A DNA stretch of 64,000 nt from Candidatus Dadabacteria bacterium UBA1144 (GTDB taxonomy: Bacteria; Desulfobacterota_D; UBA1144), in NCBI GenBank assembly GCA_002311855.1, contig DCAB01000012.1, positions 42,523-106,522 of the forward strand, in the 5' to 3' direction. Below the pieces are notes generated by a model. It made no database searches and had not been told where the DNA came from. It saw only the letters and a list, made by a program, of their open reading frames with translations. The position numbers and the translations under genes were made by a program. Shown piece by piece: positions 30,707 to 61,877 of the stretch (positions are counted from its first letter, which is position 1; each line of letters opens with the position of its first letter).

Positions 30707-30780
30707 GGCCCCTTCGTCTAGTTGGTTAAGGACGTTGCCCTCTCAAGGCAGAAACACGGGTTCAAATCCCGTAGGGGCTA
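30707..30780 (+). tRNA. tRNA-Glu (anticodon CUC)
   Basis: cloverleaf folded by hand: acceptor GGCCCCU/AGGGGCU, D-arm GUCU...GGAC, anticodon stem UUGCC/GGCAG with loop CUCUCAA, T-arm ACGGG-UUCAAAU-CCCGU; close to bacterial tRNA-Glu; no encoded CCA. Confidence 0.8.
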
Positions 30781-50568: not shown

Positions 50569-50639
50569 CTGGCCCGGAAGGGATCGAACCTCCATTGCTT
50601 GGACCAAAACCAAGAGTCCTGCCTTTAGACGACGGGCCA
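50569..50639 (-). tRNA. tRNA-Gln (anticodon UUG)
   Basis: 71-nt cloverleaf folded by hand on the minus strand: U1-A72 acceptor pair as in bacterial tRNA-Gln, anticodon stem CUUGG/CCAAG with loop UUUUGGU, T-arm GGAGG-UUCGAUC-CCUUC. Confidence 0.78.
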
Positions 50640-57367: not shown

Positions 57368-58315
57368 ATGATAAGTATTCAAGAAGTAAAGAAATCTTTT
57401 CAAAATAATGGGTCAAAATTAATATATCAATTTTTAGATGGATTGAACTGGAAACAGCTAACCTATAAAGATATCAACTCAAATATCGACTATGTACTTT
57501 CTTATCTCATTGCTAATAAAATAACAAACAAGAGAGTTCTAAGTTTATCAATGAATTGCCTAGATTCATTTATTCTTGAATCTTCTCTTTCATCTTTAGG
57601 TTGCGATATAAGTTTCTTTGACGAGAGACTAAGTCAGACTTTGGATATCAAAAGGAGTTTTGATATCATCATCATTGACGATATAGAAAAACTATCGAGC
57701 AATCCTATGGTTAAAAGATTACTTGATGAAGAAAACGAAATAATATCAATCAAACATTTTAAAAATATTACAGATTATAAGCAAAAAGTTAAATCAATAA
57801 AAAATATACACAAGATGGGTTTATTATCAAAAAGGAGGCTCGATGATAATCCAGAAGATTATTTGAAGAATATTAGAAAAAAAAATTTTGTGGAATTTAT
57901 AAATCACGAAAATTGTATTGAAGTTAACATCGAGGATTTCTTTGCAATCATTGGTGAATACGAAAACATTTTTGATAGTATCAATGAAAAAGAGTTTTCT
58001 TCCTCTTTGTATTTAAAACCAGATTTATTTTCGAAATCTATTAATCATCTATTTCTTTTATCATCCAACAAATTTACCAATAACAATTCTTTAATCTCGT
58101 TTCTTAATAATGCAAATGAAATCATGCCAAAGAACTTAGTAATCGATTCTGAAAGCATCGACAACTTAGTAAAAATTAGCAAGGACAGCGGCGTCAAATT
58201 AATAGACTTATTGGGATCTAGGGTAAAAAGGATAATTACATATAATTATGCCAATGGTAACAATATCGGAATAATTAAAAGCAATGGAATAGAAATTTTT
58301 AATTCGCCTCTATAA
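57368..58315 (+). CDS. hypothetical protein (ORFan-like)
   Basis: 315 aa, Asn/Ile/Lys-rich. Only faint resemblance at the N-terminus (LTYKDINSNIDYVLSYLIAN) to the start of adenylate-forming enzymes, but the core AMP-binding motifs are absent. Confidence 0.45.
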   Translation: MISIQEVKKSFQNNGSKLIYQFLDGLNWKQLTYKDINSNIDYVLSYLIANKITNKRVLSLSMNCLDSFILESSLSSLGCDISFFDERLSQTLDIKRSFDIIIIDDIEKLSSNPMVKRLLDEENEIISIKHFKNITDYKQKVKSIKNIHKMGLLSKRRLDDNPEDYLKNIRKKNFVEFINHENCIEVNIEDFFAIIGEYENIFDSINEKEFSSSLYLKPDLFSKSINHLFLLSSNKFTNNNSLISFLNNANEIMPKNLVIDSESIDNLVKISKDSGVKLIDLLGSRVKRIITYNYANGNNIGIIKSNGIEIFNSPL

Positions 58316-58984
58316 TTAGATTTTTGCAATCTGTTTTGCCATCGGGAAAATACTACTTATTACATTTGCTATAGCAACGGCTATATCCATGTGCTCTTTT
58401 TGCGTTCCATGACCACTTCTAAGTTCAATATAATGAACCCAGCTTCTCAATGTTCCATTCATATACATTCTGCTAACGGTATTACCTTCTGGCAATACGG
58501 ATCTAGCTTGTTCTTTAGCGATACCATTCTCAATAGCCCAACTATAGGTCTCTTTCGCAATTTCAATCAATTTTAATTGTCTTTCGTTCCACTCTTTTAT
58601 TAGAGATGCATCATCGGTTTCAATAGAATTTTGTCTATTTTCCTTATCTTGGAGTCTAGCTTGTCTTGTCACAAATGATAAATTTGTAGTTGGATCGGCA
58701 TATCTTTGACTGAATTCCTGAAAACTAAACGATCTATGCCTAAGAATTTGTCTTGCGATATCTCTTGTTGTTTCAATTTCAATACATGCGCTTACCATTT
58801 CTAAGGGTGACCAATGCTTATTGGTAATTAGATAAGTAATTAATCTCTCACTTGTTTCAGTGTTAATCTGGTTTGATGGATTAGAAACTCTTGCACAGAA
58901 AGCAATCAATTCCTGGACATTGGAGATTCCTTCATCTTGAAATTCGTCGGTTGGTTTCGAGTAACTTACTAATCTTATCTTCAT
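58316..58984 (-). CDS. thyX: flavin-dependent thymidylate synthase
   Basis: 222 aa; ThyX signature RHRSFSFQEFSQRY (RHRx7-8S). Confidence 0.9.
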   Translation of the reverse strand: MKIRLVSYSKPTDEFQDEGISNVQELIAFCARVSNPSNQINTETSERLITYLITNKHWSPLEMVSACIEIETTRDIARQILRHRSFSFQEFSQRYADPTTNLSFVTRQARLQDKENRQNSIETDDASLIKEWNERQLKLIEIAKETYSWAIENGIAKEQARSVLPEGNTVSRMYMNGTLRSWVHYIELRSGHGTQKEHMDIAVAIANVISSIFPMAKQIAKI

Positions 58985-58987
58985 TTT

Positions 58988-59746
58988 CTAAATAATTTTG
59001 TTGTTTAGAGATTCTAGCATTATATCTAAAAAATTATCTAAAGAATAATTAATAAAATTTAGATTCATCATATTAGAATCCATATTCTCGTATTTCTCGC
59101 CTGATTGATCAACAATATATATTTCTTTGTTTCTTTTGCGAACTATTTCAATAAAAGAGTACGTCATAGGGGAGATTTGATCAGCCACCAATATAGTCAA
59201 ATTGTCACACTTATTTAGTAGCATCCAAGAATCTCTCAAGTCCCATTGGGCAATATCTTGCCCCTTGAAAGGCATACTTGGTTTTAATATATTACTTCTG
59301 CACGAAATACACGTAATATCATCTTGGTTTTTAACAACTGACTCCATGCTTTTGTCCATTCCACAAGTTGAACAATACACCCAGTTAATATTACCCTCTA
59401 GGTCAATAACATTTTGTGAATTATTTAATGTTAGTATTCCGTCTATATTGAGATTAATTATTCCAACTACATTTGGAGATTTCTTAATTTCCAAAATCCT
59501 CTGATACCTACTAGAAACTGTAAATGGATATTCATCTTTCAGAATATGAATAATGTTATCAAAATATTCATTTCTAATTTTTTCATTAGTTCTAAAATCC
59601 TTGATTGAGGGTCGTTTTTCATAACTAAATAGCACTTCGAATTTACCTTCTTCGTAAAAATTCTTCTCTATAATGAGAGCAATTTGATTGAATTGAGAGA
59701 AGTCTTCAATTAGAATATTTTTGTCCATTTGTTCTAATATTATCAT
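58988..59746 (-). CDS. SIR2-like domain protein, apparently catalytically degenerate
   Basis: 252 aa; sirtuin-like core NIDGI...VIDLEGN...CSTCG...CISC (Zn ribbon), but both catalytic-region His are replaced (QNIDxLHE becomes LNIDGILT; HG becomes EG) and the N-terminal GAGIS motif is absent. Confidence 0.45.
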   Translation of the reverse strand: MIILEQMDKNILIEDFSQFNQIALIIEKNFYEEGKFEVLFSYEKRPSIKDFRTNEKIRNEYFDNIIHILKDEYPFTVSSRYQRILEIKKSPNVVGIINLNIDGILTLNNSQNVIDLEGNINWVYCSTCGMDKSMESVVKNQDDITCISCRSNILKPSMPFKGQDIAQWDLRDSWMLLNKCDNLTILVADQISPMTYSFIEIVRKRNKEIYIVDQSGEKYENMDSNMMNLNFINYSLDNFLDIMLESLNNKII

Positions 59747-60056
59747 GAGTGTAGATATTATAAAATTTGAACTTCTAAATAAGAATGTATTATCAATCTT
59801 GTGGAGTGATTCTCATCTAAGCTACATTTTAACAAAAGATTTAAGAAATTCATGCCCTTGTGCTACTTGTAGGACAGCGAAAAAGGGGTTTAAAAAATCC
59901 TTGCCTATTCTCCCATCCGAGAGCTACAATATCATTAATTCAGAAAGAGTAGGGAAATATGCCCTCCAATTCAAATGGGAGGATGGTCATCGGACCGGAA
60001 TCTTTTCTTATGTATTACTTAAAAAATTGTGCACTTGCATCGAATGTCAAAATTAA
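59721..60056 (+). CDS. DUF971 (gamma-butyrobetaine hydroxylase-like N-terminal domain) family protein
   Basis: 111 aa; ILWSDSHLSYILTKDLRNSCPCATC matches my recollection of the DUF971 pattern W.DGH.S.Y....LR..CPCA.C; second Cys pair CTCIEC; true start may be Met 59745. Confidence 0.6.
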   Translation: MSICSNIIMSVDIIKFELLNKNVLSILWSDSHLSYILTKDLRNSCPCATCRTAKKGFKKSLPILPSESYNIINSERVGKYALQFKWEDGHRTGIFSYVLLKKLCTCIECQN

Positions 60057-60697
60057 ATTCCTCTAATATCGCCCCATATAATTTTATGTAACTGAGGGAG
60101 GACTCTGACTTTCAAGTTATCTTCTAAAATTAAATCCGCTAGAAAAGATATATTGGCACCATAAACCGGCTGAAAAATAATTTTCGCTCTAAAATTTTTA
60201 TCAGTAATTATTTTTCTTGCATATTCATAATCGTTTTTATCGCTAATTACAAATTTGATCTGATCTTTTTCTTGTAATGACTCAAGAATAGAAAAATTCG
60301 TTTTCTTTTCCATTTTAGATGCGGGACATTTACAATCCATACTGATTAAAACATTTAAATCATGGAATATATGACTAGGTTTTATGTGGCCTGCCGTTTC
60401 TAGTAATATTTTGAATTTTCTTTGGATTAAAGCATCAACTAAGACGATTAATGTATCCTGCTGGAGGAGAGGCTCTCCTCCAGTTATACAAATATTTTTA
60501 CAATTTAATGATTCAATTTTTTGAATTAAATCACCCACTTTTAAATCTTTATAATCTTCTCCCTCAACTGCGTACATTGAATCGCACCAAGTACATCTTA
60601 AATCACAACCGAAAAGCCTAAGGAAAATTGTTGGGACTCCTATCTGAATCCCCTCTCCTTGAATAGAGAAAAAAATTTCATTAACTCTTAATTTCAT
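60053..60697 (-). CDS. queE: 7-carboxy-7-deazaguanine synthase (radical SAM)
   Basis: 214 aa; IFFSIQGEG...RLFGCDLRCTWCDS cluster motif. Confidence 0.9.
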   Translation of the reverse strand: MKLRVNEIFFSIQGEGIQIGVPTIFLRLFGCDLRCTWCDSMYAVEGEDYKDLKVGDLIQKIESLNCKNICITGGEPLLQQDTLIVLVDALIQRKFKILLETAGHIKPSHIFHDLNVLISMDCKCPASKMEKKTNFSILESLQEKDQIKFVISDKNDYEYARKIITDKNFRAKIIFQPVYGANISFLADLILEDNLKVRVLPQLHKIIWGDIRGI

Positions 60698-61412
60698 AAT
60701 TTTTTGTTTTTGGTAGTTTCATCAATTTTTCAGATACAGCTCTTAGGACCAGTGGATCGGGAAGTTTTGCTTCTTCAAAGGCCTTTGATCTTAGAATATT
60801 TGCATGATCTTTAGAAGATGGGGGATATCTACCATCATAACTTGTGTGTGTATATGCAAGCGACGACCAACATGGCTCCCCTAAACTTTTTGCTAATTTT
60901 ACAATTTCAGATTTTCTTAAATTTATGACTGGTGTTAAAACGTCAATTTTTTTTTCCAAAGATAATGAAATTGTTTTTTCCACACTATCTATAAAATCTT
61001 GCCTACAATCTGGATAACCACCAAAATCTTCCTGGCAAACTCCTAGTATCACAGTTGAAATGCTTTTCGAATAAGCTTTGTTTGCCGCAATTGACAAGAA
61101 AAGCAGATTTCTTGCGGGTACGAATGTTTTTTGTATTCCAGTGGCAAAATCTTCGATGTTATCATGCAACTCCAGTCTTTCATTATGATTTGTTAGTGGA
61201 GATTTTCCATCAAATATACCTCCGATATCAATTACCTCATAATCTTTAACCCCAGCAAGTTGCACTATCTTGATAGCCGAATCAATTTCTATTTTGTGAA
61301 GTTGATTATAATTAAATGTTATGGCTGAACAAGAATAGCCCCGGCTCATAGCCCAAAAAAGACAGGTGGTAGAATCTTGCCCACCACTTAAAATAATTAA
61401 TGCTTTTTTCAT
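60681..61412 (-). CDS. queC: 7-cyano-7-deazaguanine synthase
   Basis: 243 aa; PP-loop ALIILSGGQDST. Confidence 0.9.
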   Translation of the reverse strand: MKKALIILSGGQDSTTCLFWAMSRGYSCSAITFNYNQLHKIEIDSAIKIVQLAGVKDYEVIDIGGIFDGKSPLTNHNERLELHDNIEDFATGIQKTFVPARNLLFLSIAANKAYSKSISTVILGVCQEDFGGYPDCRQDFIDSVEKTISLSLEKKIDVLTPVINLRKSEIVKLAKSLGEPCWSSLAYTHTSYDGRYPPSSKDHANILRSKAFEEAKLPDPLVLRAVSEKLMKLPKTKNYEIKS

Positions 61413-61436
61413 AGATTTCTCAATTATTATTATATA

Positions 61437-61877
61437 ATGGATAAGATTAGAAAAGTAGAAGTTTCTGATCTGGATACAATTTGCAATTTAGAACAAATAT
61501 TCTTCTTGGATTATTGGAGTAAAAACCAGATTTTAAATCAAATCTCGTGTGAAAAGAATATTAATTTTTGCATTGAAAGCGATTCCAAGATAGTTGCTTA
61601 CATATTTGCACGATATTACTTAGATTTTACTGAAATATTGAAAATCGGCGTTTCTAGAGGATTTAGAAAAGTCGGACTAGCATCAATTCTTATGAAAGAA
61701 ATAGAATTATTATGTTTAAATATGAAAATTAAAAAAATTTTATTAGAAGTAAGAGAAGCAAATATTGCTGCAGTAAGTCTTTATAAAAAATTGAATTATA
61801 AAATTGATGGGATAAGAAAGAATTACTACAAGAAATATAATGATGATGGAATTTTAATGAGTAAAAAATTAATTTGA
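61437..61877 (+). CDS. GNAT-family N-acetyltransferase (RimI-like)
   Basis: 146 aa; acetyl-CoA motif region ...VSRGFRKVGLASILM... Confidence 0.7.
   Translation: MDKIRKVEVSDLDTICNLEQIFFLDYWSKNQILNQISCEKNINFCIESDSKIVAYIFARYYLDFTEILKIGVSRGFRKVGLASILMKEIELLCLNMKIKKILLEVREANIAAVSLYKKLNYKIDGIRKNYYKKYNDDGILMSKKLI

What the first reader, a model, noticed from the sequence alone, without database searches (positions are those of the whole stretch)
58316..60056. thyX flanked by a degenerate SIR2-like protein and a head-to-head DUF971 protein
The 252-aa protein keeps the sirtuin Zn ribbon (CSTC...CISC) and the NIDG / V-x-D-L-x-G core spacing. Both positions that carry the catalytic-region His in sirtuins are substituted (LHE becomes ILT; HG becomes EG), and the N-terminal GAGIS NAD-binding loop is missing. 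This points to a pseudo-enzyme or an NAD(P)-binding protein rather than a deacetylase or NADase.

Its 5' end abuts or overlaps (0-26 nt) the divergently oriented DUF971 gene (CPCATC plus CTCIEC zinc-binding pairs), leaving no room for separate promoters. Possible explanations are antisense overlap, a shared regulatory region, or mis-called starts. It lies immediately adjacent to thyX, which uses NADPH/FAD.
Basis: partly seen in the sequence, partly recalled or inferred. Interest (0 to 1): 0.5.

Follow-up and report, generated by a model that had tools for sequence, protein, structure and literature searches.

The report
Inactive-looking sirtuin relative beside thyX
A small marine bacterium (pelagic Dadabacteria) carries a sirtuin-like protein that has lost the residues sirtuins need for their chemistry, yet it is well conserved and lies next to the thymidylate synthase gene thyX in every relative examined, so it probably does a new, non-sirtuin job linked to DNA-precursor synthesis.

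Summary
Window 58316-60056 encodes thyX (-), a sirtuin homologue (-) and a DUF971 gene (+).

It is the extreme member of a clade seen here only in Dadabacteria-type genomes. In that clade GAG is G-x-E and the catalytic position drifts (Y/N/H/L/C/F/M/E). The gene is under purifying selection (dN/dS about 0.1).

It lies next to thyX in all 23 related loci examined. This holds where both flanks differ, and across the pelagic clade's switch to a different, phage-like thyX.

The head-to-head overlap with DUF971 is a start-calling artefact. The true starts are 59728 and 59745, leaving a 16-nt spacer, against 69-136 nt in non-pelagic relatives. DUF971 has been deleted in some pelagic lineages, so it is not an obligatory partner.

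Best reading: a pseudo-sirtuin acting as a binding or accessory protein with ThyX. The link to ThyX is inferred from gene order, not shown. I rate it a new variant of a known kind, of moderate interest.

The parts
58988..59728 (-). Sirtuin-derived protein (SIR2L).
59660..59668 (-). Codons E21-K22-N23, which occupy the place of the sirtuin GAG NAD-pyrophosphate loop.
   Evidence: MAFFT and hhalign alignments. Non-pelagic relatives have G-x-E here in 114 of 120 sequences. Coordinates.
59390..59404 (-). DLEGN. E111 (E117 in 252-aa numbering) replaces the catalytic His of sirtuins.
   Evidence: phmmer alignment to Sir2Tm H116, MAFFT and hhalign. Glu is invariant in the pelagic clade. Elsewhere in the family the position is Y/N/H/L/C/F/M.
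59300..59374 (-). Zinc ribbon CSTC-x17-CISC.
   Evidence: The four Cys are invariant in 122 sequences. Coordinates.
59225..59287 (-). LKPSMPFKGQ....QWDLRDSW. This is the equivalent of the sirtuin LRP and FGE substrate-groove loop, followed by two family-specific invariant Trp.
   Evidence: K149, F154, Q157, W162 and W168 are invariant across alignment A3.
58316..58984 (-). thyX, flavin-dependent thymidylate synthase, single-domain, 222 aa. It starts 3 nt after the SIR2L stop codon.
   Evidence: TIGR02170 149.8 bits and Pfam Thy1 143.8 bits. RHRx7S motif. It is 61-64% identical to phage ThyX. It has no meaningful similarity to the tandem, roughly 490-aa ThyX of non-pelagic Dadabacteria.
59729..59744 (.). 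16-nt AT-rich spacer between the divergent start codons of SIR2L and DUF971.
   Evidence: The spacer is 13-16 nt in five distinct pelagic relatives and 69-136 nt in non-pelagic relatives.
59745..60056 (+). DUF971 / GBBH-like_N zinc-binding protein, 103 aa. It overlaps the queE stop by 4 nt in convergent orientation.
   Evidence: Pfam PF06155 69 bits. CPCATC and GHxTG are mostly conserved in orthologues (8-9 of 10), and the C-terminal CxCxxC in 7 of 10. The gene is absent from L010, L011 and L013.
60053..61412 (-). queE (60053-60697) and queC (60681-61412). They are co-directional with SIR2L-thyX and serve as context. They abut SIR2L directly where DUF971 is deleted.
   Evidence: Pfam and locus comparison.

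Best explanation
The window comes from a marine pelagic Dadabacterium with a streamlined genome. SIR2L (58988-59728) and thyX (58316-58984) form a tight co-directional pair with a 3-nt gap.

SIR2L descends from a CobB-type sirtuin and keeps the Rossmann fold and the zinc ribbon. It belongs to a clade, seen here only in Dadabacteria-type genomes, that has given up sirtuin chemistry. The NAD-pyrophosphate loop GAG carries a Glu (G-x-E) or is erased (EKN here). The Arg of PDFR is lost. The catalytic His position is free to vary.

The protein is nevertheless under purifying selection. It keeps 13 invariant residues: the four zinc Cys, the LRP and FGE-loop equivalents (K149, F154, Q157) and new Trp residues (W116, W162, W168).

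Most likely it is a non-catalytic binding module, a pseudo-sirtuin. It would use the former substrate cleft and zinc module to bind ThyX, or a ligand of the dTMP pathway, and so assist or regulate thymidylate synthesis.

Shown: homology and fold; loss of the NAD and catalytic motifs; purifying selection; adjacency to thyX in every locus examined.
Inferred: that the protein is non-catalytic, and that it acts on or with ThyX.

The DUF971 neighbour is a separate gene. Mutant-fitness data from other bacteria link DUF971 proteins to Fe-S cluster maintenance. Its apparent overlap with SIR2L comes from start calling combined with extreme spacer compression.
For: Fold and homology:
- Pfam SIR2 is above threshold. 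A profile of 44 canonical sirtuins hits only this ORF in the window, E 2e-26.
- hhalign gives 100% probability, E 2.6e-60.

Loss of chemistry:
- E replaces H116, and EKN replaces GAG. Q98 is L, GSS is VAD and N214 is D.
- Across 120 non-pelagic relatives, GAG is G-x-E in 114. The catalytic position is Y in 41, N in 40, H in 19, L in 10, C in 5, F in 4 and M in 1.
- All NCBIfam deacylase models score below their cutoffs: 55 bits for the window protein and 162-194 bits for relatives, against cutoffs of 221-395.

Still functional:
- dN/dS is 0.10 for L010 against L011 at dS 0.53. That equals QueE (0.13); ThyX is 0.03.
- 13 columns are invariant across 122 sequences.

Link to thyX:
- The genes are adjacent in 14 of 14 pelagic loci with gaps of 0-7 nt.
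- They are adjacent in 9 of 9 non-pelagic loci. In L018 and L020 both flanks differ. L022 and L023 were chosen through ThyX, not through SIR2L.
- The adjacency survived replacement of the tandem, roughly 490-aa thyX by an unrelated-looking 222-aa phage-like thyX.

Organism:
- L013 is MAG TMED58, which PMC8115339 lists as 'MarinePelagic2' Dadabacteria: 1.2 Mb and 96% coding.
Against: - No direct evidence of an interaction with ThyX exists. In non-pelagic genomes a larger block (thyX ... xseA, an AMP-binding-like gene, cca) is also conserved. Part of the adjacency could therefore be frozen synteny.
- In L015 thyX is inverted, and in L019 two small ORFs lie between the genes. Co-transcription is thus not universal.
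- Asn100 and Asp102 of the nicotinamide pocket, and an invariant Glu at the catalytic position, are kept in the pelagic clade. A new catalytic activity cannot be excluded.
- The taxonomic limits of the clade were not fully explored.
Confidence: 0.5

Rival explanations
1. SIR2L is a re-purposed enzyme, as SirTM is. It would still use NAD+ or a related nucleotide with a different catalytic residue (Glu in pelagic forms). It might ADP-ribosylate the protein encoded beside it (ThyX) or hydrolyse a nucleotide.
For: - SirTM sets the precedent. Its Gln137 replaces the catalytic His, and the enzyme ADP-ribosylates the operon-encoded GcvH-L (PMC4518038).
- The pelagic clade keeps N100 and D102 of the nicotinamide pocket, and Glu is invariant at the His position.
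Against: - SirTM keeps its NAD-binding residues and an absolutely conserved Gln.
- Here the position varies among 8 residue types across the family, including among sequences of similar divergence.
- The GAG loop carries Glu or is erased, and the phosphate-binding Arg and Ser are lost.
- The Asn of QNID is kept in only 16 of 120 non-pelagic members.
- No macrodomain or other reversal enzyme lies nearby.
Confidence: 0.15
2. SIR2L is functional but unrelated to ThyX. The adjacency would be inherited gene order in a lineage with slow rearrangement. The protein would be a general zinc-ribbon and Rossmann binding or regulatory protein.
For: - Functionally unrelated genes (xseA, an AMP-binding-like gene, cca, queC, queE) also stay in the neighbourhood across Dadabacteria.
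- thyX is inverted in L015 and separated by 1.2 kb in L019.
Against: - SIR2L-thyX is the only pair that survives in every locus, including L018 and L020 where both flanks have changed.
- It also survives replacement of thyX by a different type at the same spot.
- In pelagic genomes the two genes are 0-7 nt apart.
Confidence: 0.27
3. SIR2L is a decaying relic: a sirtuin pseudogene in the making under relaxed selection in a streamlined genome.
For: - Progressive loss of motifs from non-pelagic to pelagic forms.
- P0009 has even lost NLNIDG.
- SIR2L is among the most diverged proteins between pelagic and non-pelagic loci, at 24-31% identity.
Against: - The ORF is intact in all 23 loci.
- dN/dS of about 0.1 equals that of QueE.
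- Within-clade identity (45-68%) is similar to QueE and DUF971.
- 13 residues are invariant across the whole family.
- A 1.2-Mb genome that is 96% coding would not keep dead weight (PMC8115339).
Confidence: 0.03
4. The head-to-head arrangement with DUF971 is a functional antisense or shared-promoter regulatory device that couples DUF971 to SIR2L-thyX.
For: - With only 16 nt between the start codons, each promoter must lie inside the other gene, so the 5' ends of the transcripts should overlap.
- Promoter-like hexamers exist at 59688-59716 (+) and 59816-59789 (-).
- The divergent pairing is also seen in L015, L016, L017, L021 and L023.
Against: - Promoter-like sites are no more frequent than in shuffled sequence.
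- DUF971 is deleted in L010, L011 and L013 and absent from L018, L020 and L022, with SIR2L-thyX unchanged.
- Other divergent pairs in the window are 24-66 nt apart.
Confidence: 0.1

Closest known systems
CobB-type / class U-III bacterial and archaeal sirtuins (Sir2Tm, Sir2Af1/Af2; Pfam PF02146; NCBIfam NF040867)
   Same: - Same fold: Rossmann domain plus a four-Cys zinc ribbon.
- Same length, about 245 aa.
- Conserved N-I-D, and the LRP and (F)xG motifs.
- Best sequence and structure matches.
   Different: - Catalytic His is Glu.
- The GAGIS, PDFR, GSS and Asn NAD contacts are lost.
- New invariant Trp residues.
- Scores lie far below the curated family cutoffs.
- The gene lies next to thyX in every locus examined.
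SirTM (class M sirtuins; SpySirTM 5a3a)
   Same: - A sirtuin-fold protein without the catalytic His.
- Encoded beside, and acting on, a specific operon partner (PMC4518038).
   Different: - SirTM keeps NAD binding and an invariant Gln-Arg pair, and sits in a macrodomain / GcvH-L / LplA2 operon.
- Here the position is variable, the NAD loop is destroyed, and the neighbours are thyX and sometimes DUF971.
Defence-system SIR2 domains (ThsA, DSR, SIR2-HerA, Avs5)
   Different: - No PADLOC hit.
- No effector or sensor partner genes.
- Those proteins keep catalytic Asn and His for NADase activity and lack the sirtuin zinc ribbon context.
Non-pelagic Dadabacteria SIR2-like proteins (for example P0016, P0172, P0212), annotated as 'SIR2 family NAD-dependent protein deacylase' or hypothetical
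   Same: - Orthologous position: DUF971 divergent upstream, thyX downstream.
- Shared derived motifs: W before the first CxxC, LKPxxxFxGQ, (H/Q)W(E/D)xR(E/D)xW, and the IxDFR insert.
   Different: - Only 20-28% identical to the window protein.
- They keep G-x-E, PDF, Q-x-x-D and GA(S/N).
- They are paired with a tandem two-domain ThyX rather than the small phage-like ThyX.

Membership tests
Sirtuin / SIR2 superfamily (homology and fold) | Significant sequence match to the SIR2 profile | tested here: met
   Pfam PF02146 39.8 bits against GA 24. hhalign against 22 canonical sirtuins gives 100% probability, E 2.6e-60.
Sirtuin / SIR2 superfamily (homology and fold) | Rossmann domain plus a small zinc-binding module with 2x CxxC | tested here: met
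NAD+-dependent protein deacylase (functional sirtuin, CobB) | Catalytic His (Sir2Tm H116, motif HG) | tested here: not met
   Glu in the window protein and in all pelagic homologues.
NAD+-dependent protein deacylase (functional sirtuin, CobB) | Gly-rich NAD-pyrophosphate loop GAG(I/V)S and the PDFR Arg | tested here: not met
   EKNFY replaces GAGIS, and PDFR is replaced by KFEVLF.
NAD+-dependent protein deacylase (functional sirtuin, CobB) | QNxD nicotinamide-pocket motif | tested here: inconclusive
   LNID: Asn and Asp are kept and Gln is lost. In non-pelagic relatives Asn is kept in only 16 of 120.
NAD+-dependent protein deacylase (functional sirtuin, CobB) | Score above the curated NCBIfam equivalog or subfamily cutoffs | tested here: not met
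   Best score 54.9 bits against a cutoff of 221. Relatives score 162-194 bits against 243-320.
NAD+-dependent protein deacylase (functional sirtuin, CobB) | NAD+-dependent deacylation activity | not testable with these tools
   Requires biochemistry.
SirTM (class M ADP-ribosylating sirtuins) | Invariant Gln at the His position with a partner Arg, and intact NAD-binding residues | tested here: not met
   Glu here, and Y/N/H/L/C/F/M in relatives. The NAD loop is lost. The definition is taken from PMC4518038.
SirTM (class M ADP-ribosylating sirtuins) | Operon with a macrodomain, GcvH-L and LplA2 | tested here: not met
   The neighbours are thyX, DUF971, queE and queC.
Anti-phage defence SIR2 (Thoeris ThsA, DSR, SIR2-HerA and others) | Match to defence-system SIR2 profiles and presence of partner genes | tested here: not met
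Other DHS-like NAD/FAD-binding folds (transhydrogenase dIII, TPP_enzyme_M, ETF-alpha C) | Closer structural or sequence match than to sirtuins | tested here: not met
ThyX, flavin-dependent thymidylate synthase (the neighbour) | Thy1 domain above cutoff and the RHRx7S signature | tested here: met
   TIGR02170 149.8 bits against 87.9. RHRSFSFQEFS at residues 82-92.
DUF971 / GBBH-like_N (the head-to-head neighbour) | PF06155 match with the CxCxxC + His zinc site | tested here: met
   69 bits against 22.8. CPCATC and GHRTG are conserved in 8-9 of 10 orthologues.

The most novel reading that the evidence does not exclude
The Dadabacteria SIR2L clade is a dedicated, non-enzymatic partner subunit of flavin-dependent thymidylate synthase. 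It would be a pseudo-sirtuin whose former acyl-lysine and NAD cleft now binds ThyX or one of its ligands, and which controls or assists dTMP synthesis. That would be the first accessory protein known for ThyX and the first sirtuin-derived pseudoenzyme with a defined metabolic partner. It would have been retained even when thyX itself was swapped for a phage-like version.
Probability: 0.3. Interest if true: 0.7.

Novelty: new variant of a known kind. Interest (0 to 1): 0.5.

Why it matters
Sirtuins are defined by NAD+-dependent chemistry that relies on one His. The only described class without it, SirTM, turned out to have a new activity aimed at its operon partner.

Here a whole clade, at least 165 protein clusters, has lost both that His and the NAD loop. 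It is nevertheless kept under purifying selection next to thyX in every locus examined. This includes 1.2-Mb streamlined genomes, where little useless DNA survives.

Three consequences follow.
- Some public records name these proteins 'NAD-dependent protein deacylase' or 'deacetylase', which is probably wrong.
- The clade offers a natural example of how an enzyme fold becomes a binding module.
- It points to a possible accessory factor for ThyX. No partner protein is known for ThyX, and its in-vivo reduction and regulation are poorly understood.

The finding also documents an in-situ replacement of thyX, and compression of a divergent promoter region from about 70-136 nt to 13-16 nt during genome streamlining.

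Tried and rejected
- Rescue of the catalytic His by re-gapping: rejected by three independent alignments.
- Defence-system SIR2: no PADLOC hit.
- Phage origin of SIR2L: no relatives in IMG/VR viral contigs.
- Structured RNA or riboswitch in the region: Rfam finds only two tRNAs, both elsewhere in the window.
- Promoter and terminator scans: no enrichment over shuffled sequence, so uninformative.
- First AF2 model, built from the 8-sequence alignment: too weak (pLDDT 67, active-site region below 50). It was replaced by a model from the 122-sequence alignment.
- The afdb50 fold library was unavailable.
- Deep HMM search hits P0013, P0017, P0030 and P0074, which are long proteins matched in many short stretches. 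Only P0013 was read: a compositional match to Cys-rich repeats of a surface protein. The other three were not inspected.
- The 530-aa hits such as P0021 are canonical sirtuins fused to membrane domains and are not relevant.
- Literature searches found no prior description: thyX + sirtuin; sirtuin + 'lack the catalytic histidine'; thyX + gene neighborhood; Dadabacteria + Sir2.
- A second sirtuin in the window: none.
- Mapping the invariant residues onto the 3-D model: not possible, because model coordinates are not exposed.
Full report
**What is there**

ORF listing and profile searches give the following genes.

On the minus strand:
- queC, 60681-61412.
- queE, 60053-60697.
- A SIR2-family ORF, 58988-59746.
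- thyX, 58316-58984. TIGR02170 scores 149.8 bits, and the RHRx7S signature is present.

On the plus strand:
- A DUF971 / GBBH-like_N gene, 59721 or 59745 to 60056.
- An unannotatable 315-aa ORF, 57368-58315.

The zinc ribbon CSTC...CISC and NIDG are present. VIDLEGN stands where sirtuins have VIELHGN. DGIL stands where they have DGLH. EKNFY stands where they have GAGIS.

**Start codons and the 'overlap'**

The 252-aa SIR2-like ORF and the TTG-started 111-aa DUF971 ORF are the longest possible readings. In relatives the six-codon N-terminal extension of the SIR2-like gene contains stop codons: L001 reads ATG ATA AAA TAA, and L010 and L011 read MIELG*. Most homologous proteins also start at the equivalent of M7.

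The conserved starts are therefore 59728 for SIR2L (246 aa) and the ATG at 59745 for DUF971 (103 aa). That leaves a 16-nt AT-rich spacer, and 13-16 nt in five distinct pelagic relatives. In non-pelagic relatives the same divergent pair is separated by 69-136 nt.

The window is about 94% coding by a crude gene call. Its other divergent spacers are 24, 46, 66 nt and larger.

Three lines identify the organism as a marine pelagic Dadabacterium.
- L013 is MAG TMED58, which Graham & Tully list as 'MarinePelagic2' Dadabacteria: about 1.2 Mb and 96% coding (PMC8115339).
- NCBI now places Candidatus Dadabacteria inside Thermodesulfobacteriota, which explains the MAG labels seen.
- The window's gene order matches L013 and the other pelagic loci.

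The spacing thus reflects genome streamlining. Both promoters must lie inside the opposite coding region. Consensus scans find candidates but no enrichment over shuffled sequence.

**It is a real sirtuin homologue**

- Pfam SIR2 scores 39.8 bits against a cutoff of 24.
- A profile of 44 canonical sirtuins hits only this ORF in the window, E 2e-26.
- hhalign of the family against canonical sirtuins gives 100% probability, E 2.6e-60.
- With a 122-sequence alignment, AlphaFold2 gives pLDDT 89.7.
- Foldseek's 50 best PDB hits are all sirtuins. The top hits have E about 1e-14, and TM-scores over the 50 are 0.62-0.76.
- PADLOC has no hit.

**It cannot be a canonical sirtuin**

Three independent alignments agree on the substitutions, using Sir2Tm numbering for the canonical residues.
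- Glu sits at catalytic His116.
- EKN replaces the GAG pyrophosphate loop.
- The PDFR segment is lost.
- Q98 is Leu.
- GSS is VAD.
- N214 is Asp.
- Only Asn99 and Asp101 remain.

All NCBIfam deacylase models score far below their cutoffs.

**It belongs to a wider clade, seen here only in Dadabacteria-type genomes**

The exhaustive HMM search found very few close relatives. The next hits were P0015 and P0016, in which the His is Phe or Tyr. Searching with those two returned at least 165 clusters. Where a source names them, they come from Candidatus Dadabacteria, 'Thermodesulfobacteriota' or 'Deltaproteobacteria' MAGs.

Across 120 of these sequences:
- GAG is G-x-E in 114.
- PDFR is PDF(S/T).
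- QNID is Q(T/A/S)(T/V)D.
- The catalytic position is Y in 41, N in 40, H in 19, L in 10, C in 5, F in 4 and M in 1.

A position that varies this freely is not catalytic. A Glu in the pyrophosphate loop is expected to repel NAD; that step is an inference from established sirtuin structures.

The clade shares derived features with the window protein.
- A Trp before the first CxxC.
- LKPxxxFxGQ, the equivalent of the LRP and FGE loop.
- (H/Q)W(E/D)xR(E/D)xW.
- An IxDFR insert.

Thirteen columns are invariant over 122 sequences.

**It is maintained by selection**

dN/dS is 0.10 for L010 against L011 at dS 0.53. QueE gives 0.13 and ThyX 0.03 on the same pair. Within the pelagic clade its identity (45-68%) matches that of QueE, DUF971 and the quinone oxidoreductase.

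**Linkage**

All 14 pelagic loci are collinear, with SIR2L 0-7 nt upstream of thyX. On its own that says little, because the whole neighbourhood is collinear.

The informative cases are the nine non-pelagic loci.
- SIR2L is immediately upstream of thyX, with gaps of 18-78 nt, in L016, L017, L018, L020, L021, L022 and L023.
- It is convergent with thyX in L015.
- It lies 1.2 kb from thyX in L019.
- In L018 and L020 both flanks are different.
- L022 and L023 were picked through ThyX rather than SIR2L, so they serve as a reverse test.

The ThyX proteins of those genomes are tandem two-domain proteins of about 490 aa. They have no meaningful pairwise similarity to the window's 222-aa ThyX. The window's ThyX is instead 61-64% identical to phage ThyX. 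thyX was therefore replaced in place, and SIR2L stayed beside it.

A caution applies. A larger block (thyX ... xseA, an AMP-binding-like gene, cca) is also fairly stable in this class, so part of the adjacency may be inherited order.

**DUF971**

It is divergently adjacent to SIR2L in L015, L016, L017, L021, L023 and most pelagic loci. It is absent from L018, L020 and L022, and lies 3 kb away in L019. It has been deleted in pelagic L010, L011 and L013. In L010 and L011 a CCATGATA remnant of its start codon and spacer survives. It is therefore not an obligatory partner. Mutant-fitness data link DUF971 proteins to Fe-S cluster maintenance (bioRxiv 10.1101/072470).

**Interpretation**

The best-supported reading, at about 0.5, is a pseudo-sirtuin. 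It would be a sirtuin-fold binding module that no longer uses NAD+ and works with ThyX or the dTMP pathway.

The rivals are:
- A SirTM-like re-purposed enzyme, 0.15. SirTM replaces the His with an invariant Gln and ADP-ribosylates its operon partner (PMC4518038). It keeps NAD binding, however, which this clade does not.
- A functional protein unrelated to ThyX whose position is historical, about 0.27.
- A decaying relic, about 0.03, which dN/dS effectively refutes.

**Novelty**

No paper in the searchable library connects thyX with a sirtuin-like partner or describes this clade. No NCBIfam model is specific to it. Some source records label members 'SIR2 family NAD-dependent protein deacylase' or 'NAD-dependent deacetylase', which is probably misleading. 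I rate it a new variant of a known kind, of moderate interest.

Noticed in passing
window 58316-58984; L015-L023: Pelagic Dadabacteria carry a single-domain 222-aa ThyX that is 61-64% identical to phage ThyX (Methylophilales phage Melnitz, Limnohabitans phage DC31). Non-pelagic Dadabacteria carry a tandem two-Thy1-domain ThyX of about 490 aa at the same position. BLASTP between the two gives only E 0.006. This looks like an in-situ xenologous replacement.
   Followed up: partly
L010 5975-6018; L011 4874-4917; L013 5996-6000: DUF971 has been deleted between queE and SIR2L in some pelagic lineages. L010 and L011 keep a 'CCATGATA...' remnant of its start codon and the spacer. In L013 queE and SIR2L nearly abut.
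   Followed up: yes
window 57368-58315 (+): This 315-aa ORF has no Pfam, NCBIfam or PADLOC hit. It is a very diverged homologue (21-27% identity, E down to 1e-18) of a roughly 330-aa AMP-binding-like (truncated ANL) gene. That gene sits next to cca, usually between xseA and cca, in non-pelagic Dadabacteria. It may be a second degenerate enzyme-derived protein in the same block.
   Followed up: partly
L016 7306-8007; L017 7272-7960; L021 6287-6996: In non-pelagic Dadabacteria, thyX is followed by a zinc-ribbon protein of about 60 aa, then a 165-aa pentapeptide-repeat protein, then xseA. All of these are absent from this part of the pelagic window.
   Followed up: no
window 61412-61437 and 61869-61877: Other signs of extreme compaction. 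queC and the RimI-like acetyltransferase gene diverge with only 24 nt between them. The acetyltransferase gene and the methylmalonyl-CoA mutase gene overlap convergently by 9 nt.
   Followed up: no
P0009 (metagenomic relative, 216 aa): A pelagic-type SIR2L relative in which even the NLNIDG nicotinamide-pocket motif is replaced by NQKQQQ. The zinc ribbon, LEGN and the QWDLRDSW motif are kept.
   Followed up: no
window 30707-30780 (+), 50569-50639 (-): These two tRNA genes are the only Rfam gathering-threshold hits in the 64-kb window.
   Followed up: no
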